Shown: in pieces, positions 45,309-56,268 of the stretch
How positions within the stretch are numbered: position 1 is the stretch's first letter
How the letters are laid out: each line of letters starts with the position of its first letter
Source: Gammaproteobacteria bacterium
GTDB lineage: Bacteria > Pseudomonadota > Gammaproteobacteria > UBA4575
Assembly (NCBI GenBank): GCA_965221955.1
Contig: CBDCTA010000029.1
Coordinates: forward strand, 256,001 to 320,000
Reading direction: 5' to 3'
Length of the DNA stretch: 64,000 nt
The notes under the pieces: generated by a model
The model's database searches: none
What the model was told of the DNA's origin: nothing
The model's input: only the letters and a program-made list of their open reading frames with translations
Program-made: the position numbers and the translations under genes

Positions 45309-45391
45309 GTATTTGTTTTAAATAAACATGTTATTACAAACATGTTTTAGATATGAGAAGTGGTATAAAACCACCTCTCACCATTCTCAAA

Positions 45392-45508
45392 GAATGTTTG
45401 ATTTGATTTGTAACGAGGCAAAAAACTTTTTGAATGCACAGTGTATGTATCAATACATGAGCAATTCAAAATATTTTTAAACGAAGTTACATGACAAATC
45501 AGGCATTC
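45392..45508 (+). mobile_element. ERIC-like MITE, copy A, between dsrC and dsrM
   Basis: TIR GAATGTTTGATTTG/CAAATCAGGCATTC; core AGGCAAAA...ATGAGCA...TTTTTAAACGAA. Confidence 0.65.
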
Positions 45509-45513
45509 AAACT

Positions 45514-45846
45514 CTATACGCAGCCTGTTGGTTTTGGTAACCCTGCATACTTACAAGCTTGCTTTGCTGGTCCATAAGGAAACAACTCATACAAATATTT
45601 ACTGTTACCTTTGTCTTTACCAAGCTTTTTGCCAATTGCTTTTGTAAGCACGCGTACCGCTGGTGCAATTTGATACTCTTCATAGTATTCGCGAAGGAAA
45701 TTAATCACTTCCCAATGGTTATCGCTTAATTCAGCACCGTCTGCTGCAGCCATTGCTTCAGCTAGGTCAGGTTGCCAATCATTAAGGTTCGCTAAGTAAC
45801 CTTCTTCATCAGTTTCAAAAGACTGACCGTTTACTTCTAAAGGCAT
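45514..45846 (-). CDS. dsrC: DsrC sulfur carrier
   Basis: C-terminal QACKYAGLPKPTGCV with both conserved Cys. Confidence 0.97.
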   Translation of the reverse strand: MPLEVNGQSFETDEEGYLANLNDWQPDLAEAMAAADGAELSDNHWEVINFLREYYEEYQIAPAVRVLTKAIGKKLGKDKGNSKYLYELFPYGPAKQACKYAGLPKPTGCV

Positions 45847-48178: not shown

Positions 48179-49438
48179 TTAACCAGCAGCAGCTTGTTCT
48201 GCTTTTTTCTGGAACCATTGCTCTGCTTCTTCATCCCAACCATCCATACGAACGTAAGAACTTTGTCGAGGTTCGTTGACCATATTTGGATCAACATCTA
48301 CATCAACACCTTCTAGGAAGTTGACTAAACCAATACGTTCAATCATTTCACCGCAGCGCTCATGTTCTAGACCGTTTTCTGCCCAGAAGTCGATGGTTTC
48401 TTCTGCAAGCTCTACAATCTTTTCATAGTCTTCTTCGGTTTCTAGTTTCATGAATGGAATTACAACCGTTCCCATCAAGTCACCAATTTTAAGGGTACGT
48501 TTACCACCCATAAGAATTGATACACCTTTGTCATCACCAGGAGACAATGCTTTCACCATAACGTTTAAGCAGTGCATGCAACGAACGCAATCTTTATTGT
48601 TTACATCTAAGGTGTCGTCATCTTTTAACGCTAATGCTTTCGTTGGGCAACGTGTAATTACATTATCAATTACATATTGACGACCTTTGCGCTCAACGAA
48701 TTTTTTCACTTCTTCTTGGTCAACTTTCATGTCATCACGCCAAGTACCAATAATGGCAAAGTCGGCACGTTCAATTGCGTTCATGCAATCATTCGGGCAA
48801 CCAGAAACTTTGAATTTAAATTTGTAAGGTAAGGCGGGGCGGTGAACATCATCAGTGAAGTTATTGAGAAGTGTGCGATGAATTTTCATTTCATCTGCAT
48901 TAGACATTTCACAGCGTGCAGCACCTACACAAGACATTCCTGTACGTACGCATGGTCCTGCACCCCCAAGATCCCATCCGTATTCGTTAATTTCGTCGAA
49001 AAAGTGTTGTGTGTTTTCTGTTGTCGCACCGATGAACATAATGTTACCGGTTTGACCGTGGAAAGTGACTAGGCCTGAACCATGTTTTTCCCAGCTATCG
49101 CCAAGTTGACGTAGCATATCTGTCGAGTAGTAATTGCCTGCAGGCGGTTGTACGCGCAGCGTGTGAAATTCTTTTGATTCTGGAAATGCTGCACCGACTT
49201 CTGAAAAGCGAGGAATGATTCCACTACCGTATCCAAATACAGAAACGGTTCCACCTTTCCAATACCCTTTGCGCGTCTCGTATGAATGTTCGAGCTGACC
49301 TAACAAAGAATTGGCTACACCTTGAATTCTTTCGTCAGGATGCTGGTCGCGCAGACGTTTAAAACCAGAAATGAAACTTGGCCATGGGCCTTTCTCTAGC
49401 TCATCAAGCATGGGGGTAGGATGATGCTTATCAGCCAT
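48179..49438 (-). CDS. dsrA: Reverse dissimilatory sulfite reductase alpha subunit
   Basis: TPMLDELEKGPWPSF, CVGAARCE, KFKFKVSGCPNDC. Confidence 0.98.
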   Translation of the reverse strand: MADKHHPTPMLDELEKGPWPSFISGFKRLRDQHPDERIQGVANSLLGQLEHSYETRKGYWKGGTVSVFGYGSGIIPRFSEVGAAFPESKEFHTLRVQPPAGNYYSTDMLRQLGDSWEKHGSGLVTFHGQTGNIMFIGATTENTQHFFDEINEYGWDLGGAGPCVRTGMSCVGAARCEMSNADEMKIHRTLLNNFTDDVHRPALPYKFKFKVSGCPNDCMNAIERADFAIIGTWRDDMKVDQEEVKKFVERKGRQYVIDNVITRCPTKALALKDDDTLDVNNKDCVRCMHCLNVMVKALSPGDDKGVSILMGGKRTLKIGDLMGTVVIPFMKLETEEDYEKIVELAEETIDFWAENGLEHERCGEMIERIGLVNFLEGVDVDVDPNMVNEPRQSSYVRMDGWDEEAEQWFQKKAEQAAAG

Positions 49439-49769
49439 AGTGGAATCTCCTAAAAATTGTTGTCAAAAAGTCGTTAATTTTGGAATTTGCTGAGCAAATC
49501 TAGGTCGACAGAAAACATATTCCGTTACATTCCAGAACCTAATAGAAAAGTCCTAAAAACATAATGTTAGAAGTGTAGAAGTAGGGCTAAAAAGGCTAAA
49601 TCCCTACCATTGGGTGCCGGCTTAAATACAACTTATCCCAATAGAGATACGATTTATTACAGTCATGAGATAAGTAATTTTAAGGGGTTTGCGAGTAGTC
49701 TAGATCCATGTTCATAACCAACAATAGAACCATGTGTTTACACCATTTTGCTGATATAGCTCATAAGAA

Positions 49770-50660
49770 ATGCAGCCCTATCCCATAAAAGAAAAGCATG
49801 CCTATGAGGCGTGGCGTGAGCAAAAATTAAATAATTATCCAAAGCAGGTGGATGAGTTAATTATTGAGCTAAATAACCCTATAAAATTAATGGATACTGA
49901 GATAAATGCATTAAAATCTATTTGTGCAAAATCCAATTTGGTCATCTACAAATGCATAACAGATGACGATCCAAAGCAAACTGTAATGTCTCTAGCTCAA
50001 CAATTAGGTTTGCAACAACTCGATGCAAACATTTGTGCGGACGAAGACCGCATTTCTGCTATACAAGTTTCTGATGAAAGCAATGCTTATTACATCCCTT
50101 ATACCAACAAGGCACTAAATTGGCATACCGATGGTTATTACAATTTACCTCAACAGCGCATACATGCTTTTTTAATGCATTGTGTGCGACCTGCAGGTTG
50201 TGGGGGTGAAAATACATATTTAGATCCTGAAATTGCATATATTTTATTACGAGATGAAAACTCAGAATATATTGCTGCACTGATGGATGAACAAGTGATG
50301 ACGATTCCGGCAAATGAACAAGATAAAAAAAATATTCGCCCTGAACAAAGTGGGCCAGTGTTTTACTTCGATGCGATGAATAATTTATGTATGCGTTACA
50401 CCGCGCGCAAACGCAATGTTGTTTGGAAGCAGGAAAAAAATGTGCAAAACGCTTTAGCTTGTTTGCAAGAGATTCTGCAGAACAATCCGTATTTGTTTCG
50501 TTATCGACTCAACGCAAAAGAAGGTGTGGTGTGTAATAACGTTTTACATTGTCGCACAGCATTTGAAGATGATGACCAAAGTAAACGTTTGCTGTATCGA
50601 GGGCGTTTTTATAATCGTGTTACGAATGGTGATGCGCTGCAAAAAGTGGTGAATCAATAA
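49770..50660 (+). CDS. TauD/TfdA-like Fe(II)/2OG dioxygenase
   Basis: LNWHTDG...NNVLHCRTAF facial triad; LLYRGRF. Confidence 0.85.
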   Translation: MQPYPIKEKHAYEAWREQKLNNYPKQVDELIIELNNPIKLMDTEINALKSICAKSNLVIYKCITDDDPKQTVMSLAQQLGLQQLDANICADEDRISAIQVSDESNAYYIPYTNKALNWHTDGYYNLPQQRIHAFLMHCVRPAGCGGENTYLDPEIAYILLRDENSEYIAALMDEQVMTIPANEQDKKNIRPEQSGPVFYFDAMNNLCMRYTARKRNVVWKQEKNVQNALACLQEILQNNPYLFRYRLNAKEGVVCNNVLHCRTAFEDDDQSKRLLYRGRFYNRVTNGDALQKVVNQ

Positions 50661-50857
50661 TGTTGTGGTTGAGTGAACTTCTCATGCAGCATCATGAGCT
50701 GAAGTCTTTTGAAGAATTAAAAGAAAAACTTTCTGAGCAAGTTTCACAAGGTGAAATGTTTTTTCGCATGGATGTGCGACCACCCTTTCAAGATACCCCA
50801 GAAAATTGGGAAGATATTTTAGAAGCTGTGTTTACTTCTGCAAATAAGGCTGAGTAA
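50660..50857 (+). CDS. Small conserved-looking protein (65 aa)
   Basis: TAATG overlap with the upstream stop; MDVRPPFQDTPENWED. Confidence 0.8.
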   Translation: MLWLSELLMQHHELKSFEELKEKLSEQVSQGEMFFRMDVRPPFQDTPENWEDILEAVFTSANKAE

Positions 50858-50863
50858 TTAAAA

Positions 50864-51553
50864 ATGTATTGGCAAGATCAAGAGGAAAAGAAGCAACAAT
50901 ATGTTGTTCCCGATGACGTTGTTGATTTGTCATTTAAAGTTCAGTGTAAGCAGCTTCCCTTGGATCACGCCTATGAATTATCACAAGCGATTCAACAAGT
51001 ATTGCCTTGGATGAAAGATGAAGCCCACGCTGGGATCCATTTAATACATGGTGCGGAGTCTGGAAACGGTTGGATGCGCCCTGAAGAACCGGATGCCATT
51101 TTAAGTTTGTCACGACGAACACGGTTCATGTTACGTATCCCAAAACATCGTATCGATGAGGCAATTAAACTTGTCGATCAAACCTTAAATGTAGCAGGTA
51201 ATGAGTTAACCTTGAGTACGCCTAACCAAAAATCACTTTCTGCATTAACCACTATATTTGCAAGATATGTCGTCACAGATGATGTTGAAGATGAAGAAGT
51301 ATTTTTAAATCAAACTGCAGAATTATTAAAAGAACAGGGCATAAAAGTTAAGAAAATGATGAGTGGTCGTGCGCATCTGTTACGTATGCCTGATGACGAT
51401 TTATTCACTCGTAGTCTGATGATTGATGGCTTAGAAGTGGAAGAATCTGTTTACTTGCAGCAACATGGGCTAGGCGCAGGCCGATTGTTTGGTTGTGGAT
51501 TGTTTCTACCTCATAAGGGGATAGATGCCGTGGGCGAAGCTCAGCAAAAATAG
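50864..51553 (+). CDS. cas6: Orphan Cas6-family (Cmx6/I-MYXAN-like) RAMP protein
   Basis: C-terminal G-rich loop LQQHGLGAGRLFGCGLF; N-terminal VDLSF..LPLDHAY; LSRRTRFMLRIP. Confidence 0.8.
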   Translation: MYWQDQEEKKQQYVVPDDVVDLSFKVQCKQLPLDHAYELSQAIQQVLPWMKDEAHAGIHLIHGAESGNGWMRPEEPDAILSLSRRTRFMLRIPKHRIDEAIKLVDQTLNVAGNELTLSTPNQKSLSALTTIFARYVVTDDVEDEEVFLNQTAELLKEQGIKVKKMMSGRAHLLRMPDDDLFTRSLMIDGLEVEESVYLQQHGLGAGRLFGCGLFLPHKGIDAVGEAQQK

Positions 51554-51667
51554 TTTTTTAGTGTTAGCAGATGAAAAATCTCCCTTTATGGGAATAAAAA
51601 TACTGTTTAGATTGAAATAACTTAAATGTTCGAACTATCGATATTTTTCAAAAACTAGGAGTGATAT

Positions 51668-51997
51668 ATGAGCTTGAGTGATATCGAAACTACACCGTCT
51701 GGGTTTTTAGTAAACATTGAAGATTGGAATGAAGATCTTGCCAATGAAATTGCCAAGGACGAAGGTGTGGAGCTGACTGAAAAGCATTGGGATGTAATCA
51801 ACTACCTGCGTGATGAATTTATTAATAATGCAGGCAATCAACCTAATACCCGCAACATGACTAAGGCTATGGCCAAAGCCTGGGGTGAGAAGAAAATTGA
51901 TGCCAAAGTTTTGTATGACCTTTTTCCTGGTGATCCAAGTAAGCAAGCAGGACGTATAGGTGGTTTACCAGAGAGCCGACGTAAAGGTGGTTATTAA
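51668..51997 (+). CDS. Cys-free DsrC/TusE-fold paralog (RspA-type)
   Basis: GFLVNIEDWNE, LTEKHWDVINYLR, LYDLFP; ends GLPESRRKGGY; no Cys. Confidence 0.88.
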   Translation: MSLSDIETTPSGFLVNIEDWNEDLANEIAKDEGVELTEKHWDVINYLRDEFINNAGNQPNTRNMTKAMAKAWGEKKIDAKVLYDLFPGDPSKQAGRIGGLPESRRKGGY

Positions 51998-52091
51998 TCT
52001 ATTTGCACACAATGGGCACCCAAAAGGGTATACAGACTGTTTTGCCTAAATCATTAAATTAATAATTACATTTGATTGAAAAGGATTCACT

Positions 52092-52295
52092 ATGAGTTCC
52101 AAGCAAGAAAAAATTGCAAGAATGCTTGAGATGCAAAAAAAGTTTATTGAACTTGAGCAAAGTGGGCAAGTAACTGCAGAAAGTTATTTTGTACCAGAGC
52201 CTGGTTCTGATCTTGATGGTTATAGAGAAGAATATATGAAACTTGCCATGGAAGTAGTTGATGAAGCACACGAAGATAAAGGCTCACATCGATAA
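52092..52295 (+). CDS. Small hypothetical protein (67 aa)
   Basis: AAGGA SD; last gene before the terminator. Confidence 0.8.
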   Translation: MSSKQEKIARMLEMQKKFIELEQSGQVTAESYFVPEPGSDLDGYREEYMKLAMEVVDEAHEDKGSHR

Positions 52296-52315
52296 ATATA
52301 GAAATTATCTCTACT

Positions 52316-52343
52316 AAAAAAGGCCGCTATAGCGGCCTTTTTT
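52316..52343. terminator. Bidirectional Rho-independent terminator
   Basis: AAAAAAGGCCGC-tata-GCGGCCTTTTTT. Confidence 0.9.
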
Positions 52344-52355
52344 ATTGCATCTAAT

Positions 52356-53027
52356 TTAAACTTCGCTCCACATACGTACCAAATTCACATACGTGTTATC
52401 AATTCGTTTTGTGTCTTCTGATTGAGGGTCTTTGCGTAGCATTTTTTCACGCGTTTTACTAAGTTGATAGAGTAAATCACGTTGTTCGTTACTACGGACT
52501 AAACTTTGAATCCAAGTAACCGCGACGAAACGCTCACCTTTGGTTACTTTGTTGACGCGGTGCCTTGTAGTAGCAGGGTATAGCACTGCATCACCTGCGT
52601 TGAATTTTATACTTTGTTCTCCGTAAGGTGTTTGTATAACAAGTTCTCCGCCATTATATTGGTCTGGTGAATTTAAAAAAATGGTCATTGCAAGATCAGA
52701 ACGGTATCGCTCATTCATCGCACCCATAACAGGGTCGTCAATATGTTCACCATATTCCATTCCAGTTTCATAACGCGCATAAAAAGGTGCAGCAATACGA
52801 TGGGGTAAAGCCGCTTGTTGATAATCTGGGTGTCGAACAACATTATTCATTACAATGCTATTTAGTGATGAAATAATATTTTCATCAGCCACTTCTTGAT
52901 TATTTTTAACCTGCTGAGCAGCCAAACCCGCAGAGAGCTTTCCTTCTCTAAATTTTGCATTTTTTAAAATTGCTTGAACATTTGATAATTCAGCATCACC
53001 AAGAATATGTTTAATATGCACTAACAT
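52356..53027 (-). CDS. PKHD-type (PiuC/YbiX-like) Fe(II)/2OG hydroxylase
   Basis: YGEHIDD, RSDL, YNGGEL, HRVNKVTKGER, WIQSLVR. Confidence 0.92.
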   Translation of the reverse strand: MLVHIKHILGDAELSNVQAILKNAKFREGKLSAGLAAQQVKNNQEVADENIISSLNSIVMNNVVRHPDYQQAALPHRIAAPFYARYETGMEYGEHIDDPVMGAMNERYRSDLAMTIFLNSPDQYNGGELVIQTPYGEQSIKFNAGDAVLYPATTRHRVNKVTKGERFVAVTWIQSLVRSNEQRDLLYQLSKTREKMLRKDPQSEDTKRIDNTYVNLVRMWSEV

Positions 53028-53085
53028 TTTTTGTTTTCTCGCTACACGTTATACTGGATTACAAATTATAGAGAATCGAAGACTG

Positions 53086-53409
53086 ATGATACTTAAAGTT
53101 ACGATAGATGAAAAAACATTTCCTCTAGAATTAGATGCAGATATGATTTCTAGTGGACAAGAAATGTTTGCAAAAATGGATGCTGACATGGATCAAGGTT
53201 GGCAAATGAGTCGCACCTGGGTAGAGGCACCGAATGATGCTCAGCGCTGTCAAATTGCAGCAGATAAGATGTTAACTGCCATTCAACAAGAGAAAACTGC
53301 GACAGTTGGACTGATGGCGGCGTATATCTTAAATAAATTACCTGGTATTCAGGCAGTGGATATTGATACCTCTGGGGATATGAACCTTACAGAATTGATA
53401 ATGAGCTAA
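53086..53409 (+). CDS. Hypothetical protein (107 aa)
   Basis: KMDADMDQGWQMSRTWV, QRCQIAADK; coding-like composition. Confidence 0.8.
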   Translation: MILKVTIDEKTFPLELDADMISSGQEMFAKMDADMDQGWQMSRTWVEAPNDAQRCQIAADKMLTAIQQEKTATVGLMAAYILNKLPGIQAVDIDTSGDMNLTELIMS

Positions 53410-53419
53410 AGACAATGGG

Positions 53420-53851
53420 CTAGAAATGTTTTGCCATTCTTAAATGTTTAATTTCTAAATCAGAATCTGCTTCACCTTCAATTTTGTAATTATTTTTTAA
53501 ATAAAAATCTACTGCGGTTTCTCTAGCAAGTAACCAGCATATTTTTGTGTTTTCTTTTTTGGCAATGGTTTCCAATTGTGCGAGCAGCTTGCTACCAATA
53601 CCTTGTCTTCTAAATGAATCTTCTACGGCCATGTAGCGAATCCGTGCAGTAAAATCTTTTTCGATTTGCAGGCGACCTACGGCAATAATTTTTTCACCAT
53701 TAAGCGCTGCAACATGAAAAGCAGTGCTTTCTAGTTCATCTTGTTCACTGCCGCGTTCAAGACCTAAGGGTTTTCGTAGTTGTTCCCAGCGAAATTTAAA
53801 GTATTCCTTAAACTCTTTTTCGGTTTGTGGTGCGCGGTAAGAAATGGTCAT
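53420..53851 (-). CDS. GNAT acetyltransferase
   Basis: RYMAV..FRRQGIGSKL, AVDFY. Confidence 0.92.
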   Translation of the reverse strand: MTISYRAPQTEKEFKEYFKFRWEQLRKPLGLERGSEQDELESTAFHVAALNGEKIIAVGRLQIEKDFTARIRYMAVEDSFRRQGIGSKLLAQLETIAKKENTKICWLLARETAVDFYLKNNYKIEGEADSDLEIKHLRMAKHF

Positions 53852-53873
53852 TGCGAGCGAAGAGAAGCAATCT
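53847..53873 (+). repeat. Half REP-like palindromic element overlapping the GNAT start codon
   Basis: GTCATTGCGAGCGAAGAGAAGCAATCT with an ATTGC/GCAAT stem. Confidence 0.45.
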
Positions 53874-53893
53874 AGTTAAAAGAGGCTAGGTGA

Positions 53894-54487
53894 TTAGGCA
53901 AATACAACCCAAGTAGTTGCAATATACTTCACACCTTCTTCAAGCGTTACACCGCGATGTTCATGTGTCCAAAAGGGAGGAAATAGAATTAATTTTCCAA
54001 GTTCAGGTTTAATTTTTATGTCTTGAAATAAAAACTCTGTTTCGCCGCCAGGACCTTGAACGTTATTCAAATACCAAATTGCGACAAGTTGGCGATGGCT
54101 AAAATCATGACTGCCACCATCAATATGCCAGTGATAGTGCTCACCTGGATTCGTGCGTTGCACGCCATAACCCATGTCTTTGAATGGTCCTTTAAAAAAA
54201 GGGTAGCTTTCCCGAAATTCTAAAATAGCTCGGCCTAAAGACTGGAATAATTCTTTATCCACATCTTTCCAATGCGCTTTGCCACTGACTACAAGGTCGG
54301 TAGATTTTTTTATGCTGTCATCTTCATTGGCCAGTTGGCCTATACGACCTTTGTATTGTCCTTCTTTATCTTGTTCGAATCGAGTAATTACACTTTCACA
54401 AAATTCTTTATCAAGTGCATTTTGTTTTTCAAATACAAAACTATTCGCTTTGACCTCTTGGATGGTCTGTAAGGGTTTGTTTGGCAT
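53894..54487 (-). CDS. 2OG-Fe(II) oxygenase (prolyl-hydroxylase-like)
   Basis: YHWHIDG, WYLN, GGETEF, HEHRG, KYIATTW. Confidence 0.9.
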   Translation of the reverse strand: MPNKPLQTIQEVKANSFVFEKQNALDKEFCESVITRFEQDKEGQYKGRIGQLANEDDSIKKSTDLVVSGKAHWKDVDKELFQSLGRAILEFRESYPFFKGPFKDMGYGVQRTNPGEHYHWHIDGGSHDFSHRQLVAIWYLNNVQGPGGETEFLFQDIKIKPELGKLILFPPFWTHEHRGVTLEEGVKYIATTWVVFA

Positions 54488-54489
54488 GC

Positions 54490-55533
54490 TTATAATGTAT
54501 TTTTTTGAACAAGATGTTCGAGTTTTTCTAAATCAAGCTCTTTATTAGTTTGATAATACGCTAACATTTCTTTCGCAAGCCTTGACCAGTGTTGTACCCC
54601 TTGAGCGACTAATGCTTTCATGGGTTTAATATCATCCATATCTACCCATGCTTGATAAGCTTCTTGAAAGCTGGGAAACAATTCTTTTCGCATCGCAACG
54701 AGGTTTGCTGAGTAGAAATGCAATGATGCTGGATTATAGTTTTCAATTAAGCCGGGCAGTGTAGATAGACAATCTGCTAGTAAATCTTTCACCGCTCTTG
54801 CCATAAATTCTGCGCGAGAGCGCGGTAAGTTCACAATCATTTCGCGCCAATCATTTCCTAATTCTTTTGTGGCAATGAATTCACCAATCTCATGCAGGGT
54901 AACGGCTTCGAGTTCGTTATCTGTCATTTGATCAAGCGCTTGATCGACGTCATTCTCAAAATCATAAAATGATAATGCTCGTGACATGGCGTTTTCATAT
55001 CTGTGCCATTGCCATTCGGTAAACTTTTCCCAAAGATAACGACGTAAGGCTTCGCGGCGAATAAAAACGTTTTTACCTTGTGTCATGGCAGGGGGTGCGG
55101 TTAAGTCGCGTGCACATTCATCTGCAGACACATACATAGTGAAGTCGCTATACACTTCTTTTTCTTCTAATTTGGCTAAAAAAAAGTGCGGAGCAGAGCG
55201 AACGCCAATGCCGCCACTATAGACATAACCTTTAGGGGCTAAAACTTTATTGATATTTTCAGTATCAAACGGATCATACTCTTTGCCATCAATTTTTAGA
55301 GGTATAAACATTTTATCCTCTAACGTCTCCCATAAACTTTCACGTTCTTGTACCCAATTACCAACATCTTCTTTGGGTAAAACATCGTTATAAGAAAACC
55401 CATTTTCCCAGCGATAGTATTCACGCATTTTGAGCAAATACACACATAAGGTGTAATTCGCTGCGTGATGTGCATCAGAGATATCGCAGTTCTTTTGCAC
55501 GATCTCGCAAAGAGGGTGAGTCGTCTTTTGCAT
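54490..55533 (-). CDS. Sfum_1244-like conserved protein
   Basis: VQKNCDISDA, YTLCVYLLKMREYYRWE, LHEIGE, RAVKDLLADC; family name from recall. Confidence 0.65.
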   Translation of the reverse strand: MQKTTHPLCEIVQKNCDISDAHHAANYTLCVYLLKMREYYRWENGFSYNDVLPKEDVGNWVQERESLWETLEDKMFIPLKIDGKEYDPFDTENINKVLAPKGYVYSGGIGVRSAPHFFLAKLEEKEVYSDFTMYVSADECARDLTAPPAMTQGKNVFIRREALRRYLWEKFTEWQWHRYENAMSRALSFYDFENDVDQALDQMTDNELEAVTLHEIGEFIATKELGNDWREMIVNLPRSRAEFMARAVKDLLADCLSTLPGLIENYNPASLHFYSANLVAMRKELFPSFQEAYQAWVDMDDIKPMKALVAQGVQHWSRLAKEMLAYYQTNKELDLEKLEHLVQKNTL

Positions 55534-55656
55534 AAGCCTATTATACGAGGTCTATGTTAGGATCTAAAAATAAACACTATTATCATTATTAAATAAGGGT
55601 TAAATGGCGAGATTAAAAACCAATGGAATCTATGGAGTGCATATTAAAGGTCCAAT

Positions 55657-56268
55657 ATGGCTAGGTTAAAGACTAAATGGAACCAAAAGGATAGAAAACG
55701 CAAACCCGAAGAAATTGCAGGTGTGATTGGTTTCAATTTATGGGTATTAGCAGGTGAGTCTTGTTTATATCTAGAGAATGAGGGTTTTGAAACGGCCTCT
55801 CGATTCCAACGCTTAGATGTCATTGCAGAATTTGTTGCATTCGGTGCCCACGTTGCTGATCGAATGGTATTCGATGAAATGACTGCGGCGGAACGTGAGA
55901 TTTTTATTAATGCGTTGGGCCAACATCTGGCGGATACCATGCAAAGTAATCGCGCAGACGTAAAAGAAGGCGAATACCGTACTGATTTTATTAATTTACT
56001 CAACGAGAGAATGAGTGAATATTCAGAGTGTTCCTATACACATGAAGATGGACCCAGTTTTTCCATGCGACGTTTAGCTGGCAATCATGTGCAAGAAGTA
56101 ATGGGTGAAAAAGATAGTAAATGGATTCCGGACTATGTAATTGATTCCGAAATTCCAAAAATGCTACTCGCACTAAAACGCGTATTCAAAGGTCAATGCA
56201 CATCTTTAAATGAAGCTGACTTTGCACCACCACCAATACCAGAAAGTGGTGTATGGGGCGAGGAGTGA
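55657..56268 (+). CDS. Hypothetical protein (203 aa)
   Basis: Long ORF with coding-like composition. Confidence 0.85.
   Translation: MARLKTKWNQKDRKRKPEEIAGVIGFNLWVLAGESCLYLENEGFETASRFQRLDVIAEFVAFGAHVADRMVFDEMTAAEREIFINALGQHLADTMQSNRADVKEGEYRTDFINLLNERMSEYSECSYTHEDGPSFSMRRLAGNHVQEVMGEKDSKWIPDYVIDSEIPKMLLALKRVFKGQCTSLNEADFAPPPIPESGVWGEE

What the first reader, a model, noticed from the sequence alone, without database searches (positions are those of the whole stretch)
49770..52343. Domesticated CRISPR-less Cas6 in an operon sharing the dsrA promoter region
Seen: a full-length Cas6-like protein with an intact G-rich loop and DHxY motif, tightly coupled (1-nt overlap, 6-nt gap) behind a TauD-like dioxygenase and a 65-aa protein. 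A Cys-free DsrC paralog, a 67-aa protein and one terminator follow. There is no array or other cas gene in 64 kb, and no mobility gene nearby. Known: Cas6 proteins bind and cut specific RNA hairpins. Inference: an exapted RNA-processing or RNA-binding regulator of sulfur oxidation, possibly O2-gated by the dioxygenase. I recall similar neighbourhoods in other rDsr bacteria but cannot verify this here. This is the best candidate for an undescribed system.
Basis: partly seen in the sequence, partly recalled or inferred. Interest (0 to 1): 0.9.

Follow-up and report, generated by a model that had tools for sequence, protein, structure and literature searches.

The report
Cas6 relative dedicated to sulfur oxidation
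A protein of the CRISPR RNA-cutting Cas6 family has left CRISPR behind and become a fixed, single-copy companion of the sulfur-oxidising dsr genes in one large class of bacteria, though what it does there is still unknown.

Summary
Window 50864-51553 encodes a 229-aa Cas6/Cmx6-family protein (PF09559, E 3.5e-61). A confident model (pLDDT 93.9) best matches a type I-B Cas6 (TM 0.75-0.81). It sits in TauD-like / 65-aa / Cas6 / Cys-free DsrC-like / 67-aa / terminator, divergent from dsrA. The assembly (96.6% complete) shows no Cas1, Cas2, Cas5, DevR or CRISPR array.

The dsr link is conserved. In an even sample of 401 genomes of the class, 118 have both Cas6 and dsrA, 7 Cas6 only, 6 dsrA only, 270 neither. 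The gene is nearly always single copy, also in 1.1-Mb genomes. In 32 of 40 loci it lies 2.1-3.5 kb from a divergent dsrA. In the family, 23 of 24 genomes have it; 4 have Cas1. A branch of 1.98 changes per site separates this clade from array-linked cyanobacterial Cas6.

The mechanism is open. The D-H motif, two arginines and the G-rich loop are kept, but the clade is acidic (median pI 6.2 against 9.5). Outside the class, 0 of 57 dsrA genomes have it. My best guess is a specific RNA binder or cutter acting on dsr-regulon transcripts (about 0.4). The main rival is a protein-level partner of the Dsr machinery (about 0.3). My searches found no paper describing it.

The parts
48179..49438 (-). dsrA, first gene of the dsrABEFHCMK... 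operon, divergent from the Cas6 operon
   Evidence: TIGR02064 E 3.5e-190, 632 bits against a cut-off of 392.85. ORF.
49572..49701 (.). Conserved non-coding block in the dsrA-TauD spacer. It has -10-like hexamers at both ends (49572-49577 read on the minus strand for dsrA, 49696-49701 on the plus strand for TauD). Between them lie a box at 49601-49616 and the palindrome at 49634-49649.
   Evidence: Alignment of 17 family loci with 78% mean column identity and long invariant runs. Sequence read. The promoter reading is inference from the hexamers.
49634..49649 (.). Palindromic element TATCCC-N4-GAGATA (consensus TATCCC-N4-GGGATA), a candidate operator of the divergent dsrA / TauD promoters
   Evidence: A match lies in 30 of 33 dsrA-TauD spacers from genomes of GC 0.38-0.68. 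Its density is 2.79 per kb against 0.168 per kb in coding sequence of the same loci. It is one of only 2 sites with at most 1 mismatch in the whole genome.
49770..50660 (+). TauD-family Fe(II)/2-oxoglutarate dioxygenase-like gene, first gene of the operon
   Evidence: PF02668 E 9e-19. WHTDG and VLHCR motifs are visible in the translation. Present next to Cas6 in 33 of 40 class loci. Also found divergent from dsrA in other classes.
50660..50857 (+). 65-aa conserved acidic protein of no known family (p65), overlapping the TauD stop by 1 nt
   Evidence: No Pfam or NCBIfam match. Conserved in 35 of 40 class loci. Alignment A4 has 56 rows and 62% mean identity. Unrelated to DsrC by profile comparison (probability 0.3%).
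50864..51553 (+). Cas6/Cmx6-family RAMP protein of the dsr-linked, CRISPR-independent clade
   Evidence: PF09559 E 3.5e-61 and TIGR02807 143.9 bits. AlphaFold2 pLDDT 93.9, pTM 0.89. Foldseek top match 8fcj_B, E 5.5e-16, TM 0.75/0.79. phmmer to 8fcj_B E 2.3e-11. Tree.
51668..51997 (+). Cys-free DsrC/TusE-family protein with a nearly invariant C-terminus GLPESRRKGGY
   Evidence: PF04358 E 2.4e-33. No cysteine in the translation. Alignment A2 of 56 rows. Downstream of Cas6 in 33 of 40 class loci.
52017..52037 (+). Conserved motif CACCCAAAAGGGTATACAGAC between the DsrC-like gene and p67. It resembles the right half of the spacer palindrome and may be an operator or an RNA element.
   Evidence: 27 distinct instances in loci that have p67, after dropping one false match. 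Loci without p67 show a terminator-type hairpin there instead (read by eye). No significant fold in this genome (z +1.13).
52092..52295 (+). 67-aa conserved protein of no known family (p67)
   Evidence: No family match. 39 distinct homologues in A3, 36 of them exactly 67 aa (41 counted, 37 of 67 aa), with 60% mean identity. Present in 14 of 40 class loci.
52315..52344 (.). Bidirectional intrinsic terminator (A-run, GGCCGC stem, U-run) between p67 and the convergent PKHD hydroxylase gene
   Evidence: Fold -20.5 kcal/mol, z -4.70, 0 of 200 shuffles as stable.
52356..53027 (-). PKHD-type Fe(II)/2OG hydroxylase, a frequent neighbour of the cluster
   Evidence: NF003974 E 3.9e-72. Within the locus in 23 of 40 class loci.

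Best explanation
The 229-aa protein is a true Cas6/Cmx6-family RAMP protein that no longer belongs to a CRISPR system. It represents a deep, vertically inherited, single-copy clade that travels with the reverse dissimilatory sulfite reductase (rDsr) genes of sulfur-oxidising Gammaproteobacteria. It is expressed from an operon (TauD-like dioxygenase, p65, Cas6, Cys-free DsrC-like protein, p67) that shares a conserved divergent control region with dsrA. That much is shown, and I put it at about 0.9. The mechanism is inferred, and I put it at about 0.4. On that reading the protein still uses the Cas6 nucleic-acid site (D34-H35, R91, R134, G-rich loop 202-214) to recognise one specific small RNA hairpin in transcripts of the dsr regulon. 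By binding or cutting there it would set the relative amounts or stability of those messages. Its lost overall positive charge would then reflect that it no longer has to hold a crRNA inside a Cascade complex. The conserved CCC-N4-GGG-ATA elements of the locus are the only candidate sites seen. The evidence leans to their being DNA operators for another factor, most likely the DsrC-like protein.
For: Family and fold.
No CRISPR partner in the genome.
In the window's taxonomic family, 23 of 24 other genomes carry one copy, and the one miss is 61% complete. Only 4 of those 24 have Cas1. Closed or near-closed genomes G001, G010, G014, G019 and G022 have Cas6 and no Cas1.
Class sample of 401 genomes: Cas6 in 125, dsrA in 124, both in 118, Cas6 only in 7, dsrA only in 6, neither in 270.
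Four dsrA-only genomes were examined. In three the contig ends within about 1.5 kb upstream of dsrA (L112, L114, L115). The fourth (L113) has 3.3 kb of upstream sequence without the cluster.
In 40 class loci a divergent dsrA lies 2.1-3.5 kb away in 32, TauD is present in 33, p65 in 35 and the DsrC-like gene in 33. The cluster is intact in a 1.1-Mb genome (L103).
Tree: the dsr-type clade of 66 rows is separated by a branch of 1.98 changes per site, SH-aLRT 100. On the other side are 17 CRISPR-type rows (15 cyanobacterial-type search hits plus plasmid loci L064 and L065) together with L036.
Site retention: F24, D34, H35 (94% in the dsr-type set, 79% in the CRISPR-type set), R91, R134, Q199, G202, G204, G210, C211, G212, F214 and P216 are conserved in both clades. 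The residues conserved only in the dsr clade are rich in basic ones: H59, R72, R85 (100%), K164, R183, H217, K218.
CRISPR repeats next to CRISPR-type relatives form a 3-4 bp G/C mini-hairpin with a 4-nt loop and a tail. The locus motif has the same general shape.
Against: The dsr-type proteins are acidic: median pI 6.19 and net charge -3 (n 259). Cyanobacterial CRISPR-type proteins have pI 9.47 and net charge +8 (n 117).
K206 and R208 of the G-rich loop are not kept.
No RNA element was shown. The motif regions do not fold better than shuffles in this genome (z +1.13, -0.95, +0.27, +0.18), and Rfam gives nothing.
The palindrome in the dsrA-TauD spacer appears to lie between two divergent -10 boxes, so it may not be transcribed. 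It is conserved as sequence rather than by compensatory change. That fits a DNA operator better than a Cas6 RNA site.
rDsr works without this protein in other classes: 0 of 57 dsrA genomes have it. There TauD-p65 is followed by siroheme synthase CysG in the three of five fetched loci whose downstream gene I scanned. This hints at a maturation role rather than an RNA role for the module.
No expression data could be had.
Confidence: 0.45

Rival explanations
1. The Cas6 fold has been re-used at the protein level. On this reading the acidic dsr-type protein is a partner, chaperone, scaffold or allosteric effector of the rDsr machinery and does not act on RNA. Candidate partners are DsrAB, the Cys-free DsrC-like protein with its basic RRKGGY tail, or the TauD-p65 module.
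For: There is a charge shift of about 11 units away from RNA-binding relatives.
New conserved aromatic and other residues and an insertion are specific to the clade: W3, W49, the N68-G69-W70-x-R72-P73 stretch (G69 itself is conserved in both clades) and E144.
The adjacency to a DsrC-family protein whose C-terminal arm is nearly invariant is constant.
In other classes the TauD-p65 module pairs with siroheme synthase, which points to cofactor or enzyme maturation.
There is a precedent. DsrD has a winged-helix DNA-binding fold but is an allosteric activator of DsrAB and binds DNA only non-specifically (passages read in PMC8794893).
Against: The residues that Cas6 proteins use for RNA stay conserved at 87-99% across a very old clade: D34, H35, R91, R134 and the G-rich loop. 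Such conservation is hard to explain if the site were idle. No partner has been identified.
Confidence: 0.3
2. The Cas6-like protein is itself the factor that recognises the conserved TATCCC-N4-GGGATA element. It would bind it as an extruded DNA hairpin or as RNA from a long leader, and so control the divergent dsrA and TauD promoters and p67.
For: The element can form a 6-7 bp hairpin with a 4-nt loop, a typical Cas6 substrate shape. It lies in 30 of 33 spacers next to the cas6 operon. A related motif lies upstream of p67. It is also found upstream of dsrA where the cas6 cluster is elsewhere in the genome (L110).
Against: The element is also present upstream of dsrA in 4 genomes where no Cas6 was found (L112, L113, L115 and partly L114), although 3 of those contigs break there. 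RAMP proteins are not known, to my recollection, to bind double-stranded operators. The DsrC family has a helix-turn-helix-like motif, and I recall a report of DsrC binding dsr promoter DNA (Grimm et al. 2010; I saw it only as a reference-list entry). That makes the neighbouring DsrC-like protein the simpler candidate. SUP05-like genomes have Cas6 but no such element upstream of dsrA (L108, L109).
Confidence: 0.1
3. It is an ordinary CRISPR Cas6 that serves an array elsewhere in the genome or on an unassembled replicon.
For: NCBIfam's equivalog model names it type I-MYXAN Cas6/Cmx6. The assembly is 96.64% complete and repeats are often not assembled.
Against: There is no Cas1, Cas2, Cas5, DevR or array in the assembly. 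Closed relatives carry Cas6 without Cas1. The gene tracks dsrA rather than cas genes. It is separated from array-linked relatives by a branch of 1.98 changes per site. Where Cas1 exists in relatives it lies far from cas6 (G017 and G023).
Confidence: 0.02

Closest known systems
CRISPR-linked Cas6/Cmx6 of type I-B / I-MYXAN systems (PF09559, TIGR02807; solved as chain B of the type I-B CAST Cascade, PDB 8FCJ)
   Same: Same Pfam family and same double ferredoxin-like RAMP fold (TM 0.75-0.81). The two share F24, D34, H35, R91, R134 and the G-rich loop QxxGxGxxxxxGCGxFxP, and are of similar length.
   Different: Identity is only about 26%. The two are separated by a branch of 1.98 changes per site. 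The dsr-type is acidic rather than basic. It carries a clade-specific N-terminal W3 and a W70-x-R72-P73 insertion after the shared G69. It has no cas3-cas8-cas7-cas5-cas1-cas2 neighbours or array, which the cyanobacterial relatives do have. It is linked to dsrA instead.
DsrD of sulfate and sulfite reducers (winged-helix protein, allosteric activator of DsrAB)
   Same: A small protein with a nucleic-acid-binding fold, encoded with dsrAB, whose presence marks one physiological type of Dsr metabolism (passages read in PMC8794893). It is a model for how a nucleic-acid-binding fold can end up acting on the enzyme itself.
   Different: The fold and family are unrelated, and DsrD belongs to reductive rather than oxidative Dsr systems. 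No interaction of the Cas6-like protein with DsrAB has been shown.
DsrC/TusE/RspA family members without the C-terminal cysteines (the neighbour gene)
   Same: The neighbour matches PF04358 and TIGR03342 and lacks both redox cysteines. The family name DsrC/TusE/RspA and the conserved-cysteine criterion are from passages read in PMC8477390.
   Different: This subgroup has its own nearly invariant tail GLPESRRKGGY and a fixed position after the Cas6 gene. Whether it equals the RspA group described in the literature was not tested.

Membership tests
Cas6 / Cmx6 protein family (PF09559, TIGR02807) | Sequence match above the curated family thresholds | tested here: met
   PF09559 scores 207 bits against 26.7. 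TIGR02807 scores 143.9 bits against 98.85.
Cas6 / Cmx6 protein family (PF09559, TIGR02807) | RAMP fold: two ferredoxin-like (RRM) domains | tested here: met
   The AlphaFold2 model has pLDDT 93.9. Of the 33 Foldseek rows printed with E up to 0.001 (ranks 1-42, with gaps), all but rank 42 (2hmf_A) are Cas6, Cas6e/Cse3 or Cascade entries. The top match is 8fcj_B at E 5.5e-16.
Cas6 / Cmx6 protein family (PF09559, TIGR02807) | C-terminal glycine-rich loop | tested here: met
   GLGAGRLFGCGLF at residues 202-214. G202, G204, G210, G212 and F214 are 92-97% conserved in 218 dsr-type sequences.
Cas6 / Cmx6 protein family (PF09559, TIGR02807) | Catalytic residues for metal-independent RNA cleavage (a histidine in most Cas6 proteins; recalled knowledge) | tested here: inconclusive
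   H35 is 94% conserved in the dsr-type set and 79% in the CRISPR-type set, after a conserved D34. The solved I-B CAST Cas6 has N at that place in the phmmer alignment. Catalysis cannot be judged from sequence.
Cas6 / Cmx6 protein family (PF09559, TIGR02807) | Endoribonuclease activity on a repeat hairpin | not testable with these tools
   This needs a nuclease assay with purified protein.
Type I-MYXAN / I-B CRISPR-Cas system (as a functional system) | Neighbouring cas3, cas8, cas7, cas5, cas1 and cas2 genes and a CRISPR array | tested here: not met
   None in the window or the assembly. The cyanobacterial relatives do have them.
DsrC proper (sulfur-trafficking substrate of DsrAB), for the neighbour at 51668-51997 | Two conserved C-terminal cysteines in the flexible arm (criterion from passages read in PMC8477390) | tested here: not met
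   There is no cysteine in the 109-aa protein, and its tail is GLPESRRKGGY. The real dsrC, at 45514-45846, scores 169 bits on TIGR03342.
TauD / TfdA Fe(II)/2-oxoglutarate dioxygenases, for the gene at 49770-50660 | Pfam match and the His-x-Asp...His iron triad (triad recalled from knowledge of the family) | tested here: met
   PF02668 scores 68.8 bits against 27. WHTDG and VLHCR are visible in the translation. The substrate is unknown: the best NCBIfam rows (trimethyllysine and gamma-butyrobetaine dioxygenases) are far below their cut-offs.

The most novel reading that the evidence does not exclude
A Cas6 endoribonuclease was domesticated early in gammaproteobacterial sulfur oxidisers as a housekeeping, site-specific RNA-processing or RNA-binding factor. 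On this reading it is a near-obligatory part of the rDsr pathway and is kept even in 1.1-Mb symbiont-sized genomes. It would tune dsr-regulon messages together with a Cys-free DsrC-like DNA-binding regulator that reads the conserved TATCCC-N4-GGGATA operator. This would be a clear case of a CRISPR RAMP nuclease recruited into the control of core energy metabolism.
Probability: 0.35. Interest if true: 0.9.

Novelty: new variant of a known kind. Interest (0 to 1): 0.78.

Why it matters
If the reading is right, three things follow.

1. One Cas6 lineage has a second life outside immunity. In the protein collection searched, this lineage looks larger than its CRISPR-linked sister. The dsr-type query gave 2532 clusters at E up to 1e-3, and the Nostoc query gave 172 at E up to 1e-5. 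The thresholds differ and both searches are candidate-limited. NCBI's equivalog model passes these genes above its cut-off (143.9 against 98.85 bits), and 11 of the 120 listed relatives carry the name 'type I-MYXAN CRISPR-associated protein'. That naming inflates CRISPR counts in sulfur oxidisers.

2. The rDsr pathway of Gammaproteobacteria has an unstudied, nearly universal accessory module: TauD-like, p65, Cas6, DsrC-like and p67, with two further 2OG oxygenases and DUF6866 often nearby. It also has a conserved operator. Both give direct handles on the open question of how dsr genes are controlled or matured.

3. The co-occurrence is sharp enough (118 both, 13 discordant, 270 neither) to serve as a genomic marker.

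Tried and rejected
RNA target search. Rfam at gathering thresholds found nothing in the window. Folds of the three spacers that carry motifs were no better than shuffles. Hairpins in the dsrC-dsrM spacer look like ordinary, sequence-variable terminators. A motif between cas6 and the DsrC-like gene in close relatives was not found in the 37 loci with that spacer that were scanned (0 of 37 by my regex). That regex also misses the window's own copy.

Complex prediction. One four-chain job was run with p65, the DsrC-like protein and p67, and Cas6 as the scored partner. The verdict was 'no answer', score 0.00 against a mark of 0.32. This is no evidence either way.

Expression. No RNA holder was listed for window 49300-52400. 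The 4 holders come from one study and are kept as contigs.

p65 as a DsrC fragment. The protein atlas names its cluster 'sulfur relay protein DsrC family', but a profile comparison with the DsrC-like alignment gives probability 0.3%. Rejected.

Fused Cas6 in other classes. The 481-485-aa gene after TauD-p65 is siroheme synthase CysG, not a divergent Cas6.

Wider regulon. Only 2 sites with at most 1 mismatch to the palindrome exist in the genome. One is the dsr site and the other lies inside a 627-aa open frame.

Literature. None returned a paper describing a dsr-linked Cas6. Passages on 'Cas6' in PMC10952691, PMC5728499 and PMC5944118 concern ordinary CRISPR lists. The library omits most subscription journals, and supplements were closed, so gene tables of transcriptome or proteome papers on sulfur oxidisers could mention these genes without my seeing it.


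Full report
WHAT IS THERE. On the plus strand the window carries five tightly packed genes:
- a TauD-family dioxygenase-like gene (49770-50660; PF02668, E 9e-19);
- a 65-aa ORF (50660-50857; 1-nt overlap with TauD; no family);
- a 229-aa Cas6-family gene (50864-51553; 6-nt gap; PF09559, E 3.5e-61; TIGR02807, 143.9 bits against a cut-off of 98.85);
- a 109-aa DsrC/TusE-family gene without any cysteine (51668-51997; PF04358, E 2.4e-33);
- a 67-aa ORF (52092-52295; no family).

A bidirectional terminator follows at about 52315-52344 (z -4.7). The operon is divergent from dsrA (48179-49438; TIGR02064, E 3.5e-190). dsrA heads dsrB, three small ORFs in the positions of dsrE, dsrF and dsrH (named by position; not scanned against a family library), and then dsrC, dsrM and dsrK.

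IT IS A REAL CAS6 BY SEQUENCE AND FOLD. An AlphaFold2 model built on 113 relatives has pLDDT 93.9 and pTM 0.89. Foldseek against the PDB puts the Cas6 chain of the type I-B CAST Cascade first (8fcj_B, E 5.5e-16, TM 0.75/0.79). Pyrococcus, Thermus and E. coli Cas6 or Cas6e structures follow. The same chain is the only significant sequence match in the PDB (E 2.3e-11).

IT IS NOT PART OF A CRISPR SYSTEM. The assembly has 2.69 Mb in 29 contigs and is 96.64% complete.
- PF09559 hits once.
- Cas1, Cas2, DevR/Cas7 and Cas5 have no hit.
- My two repeat finders found no array. The second finds the Nostoc plasmid arrays used as a control.
- In the window's own taxonomic family, 23 of 24 other genomes have one copy of the gene, and the one miss is 61% complete. 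Only 4 of those 24 have Cas1.
- One- or two-contig genomes G001, G010, G014, G019 and G022 have Cas6 and no Cas1.

THE DSR LINK IS CONSERVED AND SHARP. I searched an even sample of 401 genomes of the class.
- PF09559 is in 125 genomes and dsrA (E up to 1e-60) in 124.
- 118 have both, 7 have Cas6 only, 6 have dsrA only, and 270 have neither.
- 123 of the 125 positive genomes have a single match.

These genomes are related, so no p-value is given, but the pattern spans very many of the roughly 240 family codes sampled and GC contents of 0.37-0.68.

Some of the discordant genomes look like assembly breaks. Of four dsrA-only genomes examined, three have a contig end within about 1.5 kb upstream of dsrA, one of them with a TauD fragment at the end. 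The fourth (L113) has 3.3 kb of upstream sequence without the cluster. One Cas6-only genome, G331, is marked unpublished. Its copy has pI 10, shares 27% identity and groups with the CRISPR-type proteins.

I picked 40 class loci for having enough flank, so they are not a random draw. Among them:
- a divergent dsrA lies 2.1-3.5 kb away in 32;
- TauD is present in 33, p65 in 35 and the DsrC-like gene in 33;
- p67 is present in 14, the PKHD hydroxylase in 23, DUF6866 in 19 and a second 2OG oxygenase in 18.

Many genomes carry an extra gene of about 240 aa, of no family, between p65 and Cas6. The whole arrangement survives in a 1.1-Mb genome (L103). In a SUP05-like family and in Candidatus Thioglobus records the gene sits elsewhere. 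In one of those two SUP05-like loci (L104) the neighbours were scanned and are rnc-era-recO-pdxJ, divergent from cas6; the second locus (L105) has ORFs of matching sizes. These genomes still have dsrA.

A SEPARATE CLADE. A maximum-likelihood tree of 84 proteins places all 66 dsr-type rows on one side of a branch of 1.98 changes per site (SH-aLRT 100). These rows include the copies in other contexts and 13 representatives of unknown context. On the other side are the 17 CRISPR-type rows (15 cyanobacterial-type search hits and the plasmid loci L064 and L065) and L036. The root was set on the CRISPR-type rows and was not inferred. The CRISPR context of the outgroup was checked in three plasmid records. 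In each, cas6 is followed by cas3, cas8 or cmx8, cas7, cas5, cas1 and cas2. Arrays were found in the two Nostoc records and none in the stretch searched upstream of cas6 in the Gloeothece record. Identity between the two groups is about 26%.

WHAT THE SEQUENCE SAYS ABOUT MECHANISM. Both groups keep F24, D34, H35, R91, R134, Q199 and the glycine-rich loop G202, G204, G210, C211, G212, F214, P216. To my recollection they form the parts of Cas6 that hold and cut RNA. The dsr-type adds its own conserved residues, many of them basic (H59, R72, R85, K164, R183, H217, K218), plus three tryptophans (W3, W49, W70).

Against simple inheritance of RNA binding, the dsr-type is acidic overall. Its median pI is 6.19 and net charge -3 (n 259). 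The CRISPR-type has median pI 9.47 and net charge +8 (n 117). The dsr-type has also lost K206 and R208 of the loop.

I therefore rate 'specific RNA binder or cutter on dsr-regulon transcripts' at about 0.4 and 'protein-level partner of the Dsr machinery' at about 0.3. The second reading has a precedent in DsrD. That winged-helix protein was long taken for a regulator, but it binds DNA only non-specifically and activates DsrAB allosterically (passages read in PMC8794893).

A CONSERVED CONTROL ELEMENT. The dsrA-TauD spacer holds a palindrome, TATCCC-N4-GGGATA, in 30 of 33 loci. Its density is 2.79 per kb against 0.168 per kb in coding sequence of the same loci. In the window it is TATCCCAATAGAGATA at 49634-49649, with a second conserved box at 49601-49616.

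In the window's family the whole 130-bp block is conserved as sequence. It ends on each side in a -10-like hexamer pointing outward, which places the boxes between two divergent promoters. That is an inference, but it favours a DNA operator.

A related motif (CCC-N3-5-GGRATAYRG) lies just after the DsrC-like stop and 55-85 nt before p67, in loci that have p67. There are 27 distinct instances, and the window copy is at 52017-52037. A -10-like box, often of the extended TGn type, usually follows about 20 nt downstream (read by eye).

The element also stands upstream of dsrA in a genome where the cas6 cluster is elsewhere (L110).

The simplest reader of this element is the neighbouring Cys-free DsrC-like protein. 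I recall that DsrC has a helix-turn-helix-like motif and was reported to bind dsr promoter DNA (Grimm et al. 2010), but I saw that paper only as a reference-list entry. A Cas6 reading of the hairpin-shaped element is kept as a minor rival. CRISPR repeats beside the CRISPR-type relatives are mini-hairpins of a similar shape (ATGCC-AGTA-GGCG plus tail).

LIMITS OF THE LINK. In a phylum-wide sample of 401 genomes, PF09559 occurs in 5 and dsrA in 62. All 5 dsrA genomes of the window's class have Cas6. None of the 57 dsrA genomes of other classes does. In 6 of the 7 other-class dsrA loci looked at, a TauD-like gene is still divergent from dsrA. p65 was seen in 2 of them and in 4 of the 5 extended loci. 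The next gene in three of five extended loci is siroheme synthase CysG. So the TauD-like gene, usually with p65, is the older dsr companion, and Cas6 with the DsrC-like protein is a class-specific addition. rDsr as such does not need Cas6.

NOVELTY. NCBI's equivalog model passes these proteins above its cut-off, and 11 of the 120 listed relatives carry the name 'type I-MYXAN CRISPR-associated protein Cas6/Cmx6'. Nine full-text searches found no paper that describes a dsr-linked Cas6. The three candidate papers I opened mention cas6 only in ordinary CRISPR inventories. The library lacks most subscription journals, and supplements were closed, so I cannot exclude a mention in a gene table. I file this as a new variant of a known kind: a member of the Cas6 family by every testable structural criterion, but not a member of any CRISPR-Cas system.

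NOT DONE OR WITHOUT RESULT. The complex prediction gave no answer.

Noticed in passing
window 49572-49701 (palindrome 49634-49649, second box 49601-49616); same place in L067-L098: A conserved palindrome, TATCCC-N4-GGGATA, and a second box sit in the dsrA-TauD spacer. The palindrome is found in 30 of 33 loci across GC 0.38-0.68. Outward-pointing -10-like hexamers lie at the ends of the conserved block. This is a candidate operator of the dsr genes that I found in no paper searched.
   Followed up: partly
window 51668-51997; alignment A2: The Cys-free DsrC-like protein ends in a nearly invariant GLPESRRKGGY in 55 homologues from many families. The arm that in DsrC carries the redox cysteines is thus kept but chemically different. 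It could be a substrate of the neighbouring dioxygenase, which is speculation.
   Followed up: partly
L117-L122 and L124-L128 (genomes of other classes of the phylum): A TauD-like gene is divergent from dsrA there as well, in 6 of 7 loci looked at, with p65 seen in 2 of those 7 and in 4 of the 5 extended loci. These genomes have no PF09559 hit. In three of five extended loci the next gene is siroheme synthase CysG, which hints that the TauD-p65 module relates to DsrAB cofactor supply or maturation.
   Followed up: partly
window 52356-56268: A wider conserved neighbourhood lies here: a PKHD-type hydroxylase, a 107-aa ORF, a GNAT, a second 2OG-Fe(II) oxygenase (53894-54487), DUF6866 / Sfum_1244 family (54490-55533) and a 203-aa ORF. 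Several recur next to the cluster in distant genomes, so three Fe(II)/2OG oxygenases lie within 6 kb of dsrA. In some genomes a TauE/SafE sulfite-exporter-like gene and a TrpD-like gene join them.
   Followed up: partly
L070, L074, L081-L085, L088, L092, L094-L096, L098 (between p65 and cas6): Many genomes carry an extra gene of about 235-270 aa, with no Pfam match, inserted between p65 and Cas6. It is absent from this window.
   Followed up: no
L104, L105 (SUP05-like family), L077: Where the dsr-type Cas6 is not beside dsr it sits next to RNA-metabolism genes. In L104 it is divergent from rnc (RNase III)-era-recO-pdxJ (scanned against Pfam). In L105 the neighbouring ORFs have matching sizes but were not scanned. 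In L077 it lies directly after a SpoU-type rRNA methyltransferase. This is a weak hint towards RNA, and it could be chance.
   Followed up: no
protein database searches: The NCBIfam equivalog TIGR02807 scores the dsr-type protein above its cut-off, so annotation pipelines name these genes as type I-MYXAN CRISPR proteins. In the collection searched, the dsr-type query found many more clusters (2532) than the Nostoc CRISPR-type query (172). The thresholds differ.
   Followed up: partly
window 45309-45513 (dsrC-dsrM spacer, minus strand): This 205-nt spacer after dsrC has several strong hairpins (-62.8 kcal/mol for the whole spacer). Relatives have shorter spacers with different but equally strong hairpins. 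It is probably a partial terminator or stabiliser that raises dsrC message over the downstream genes.
   Followed up: no
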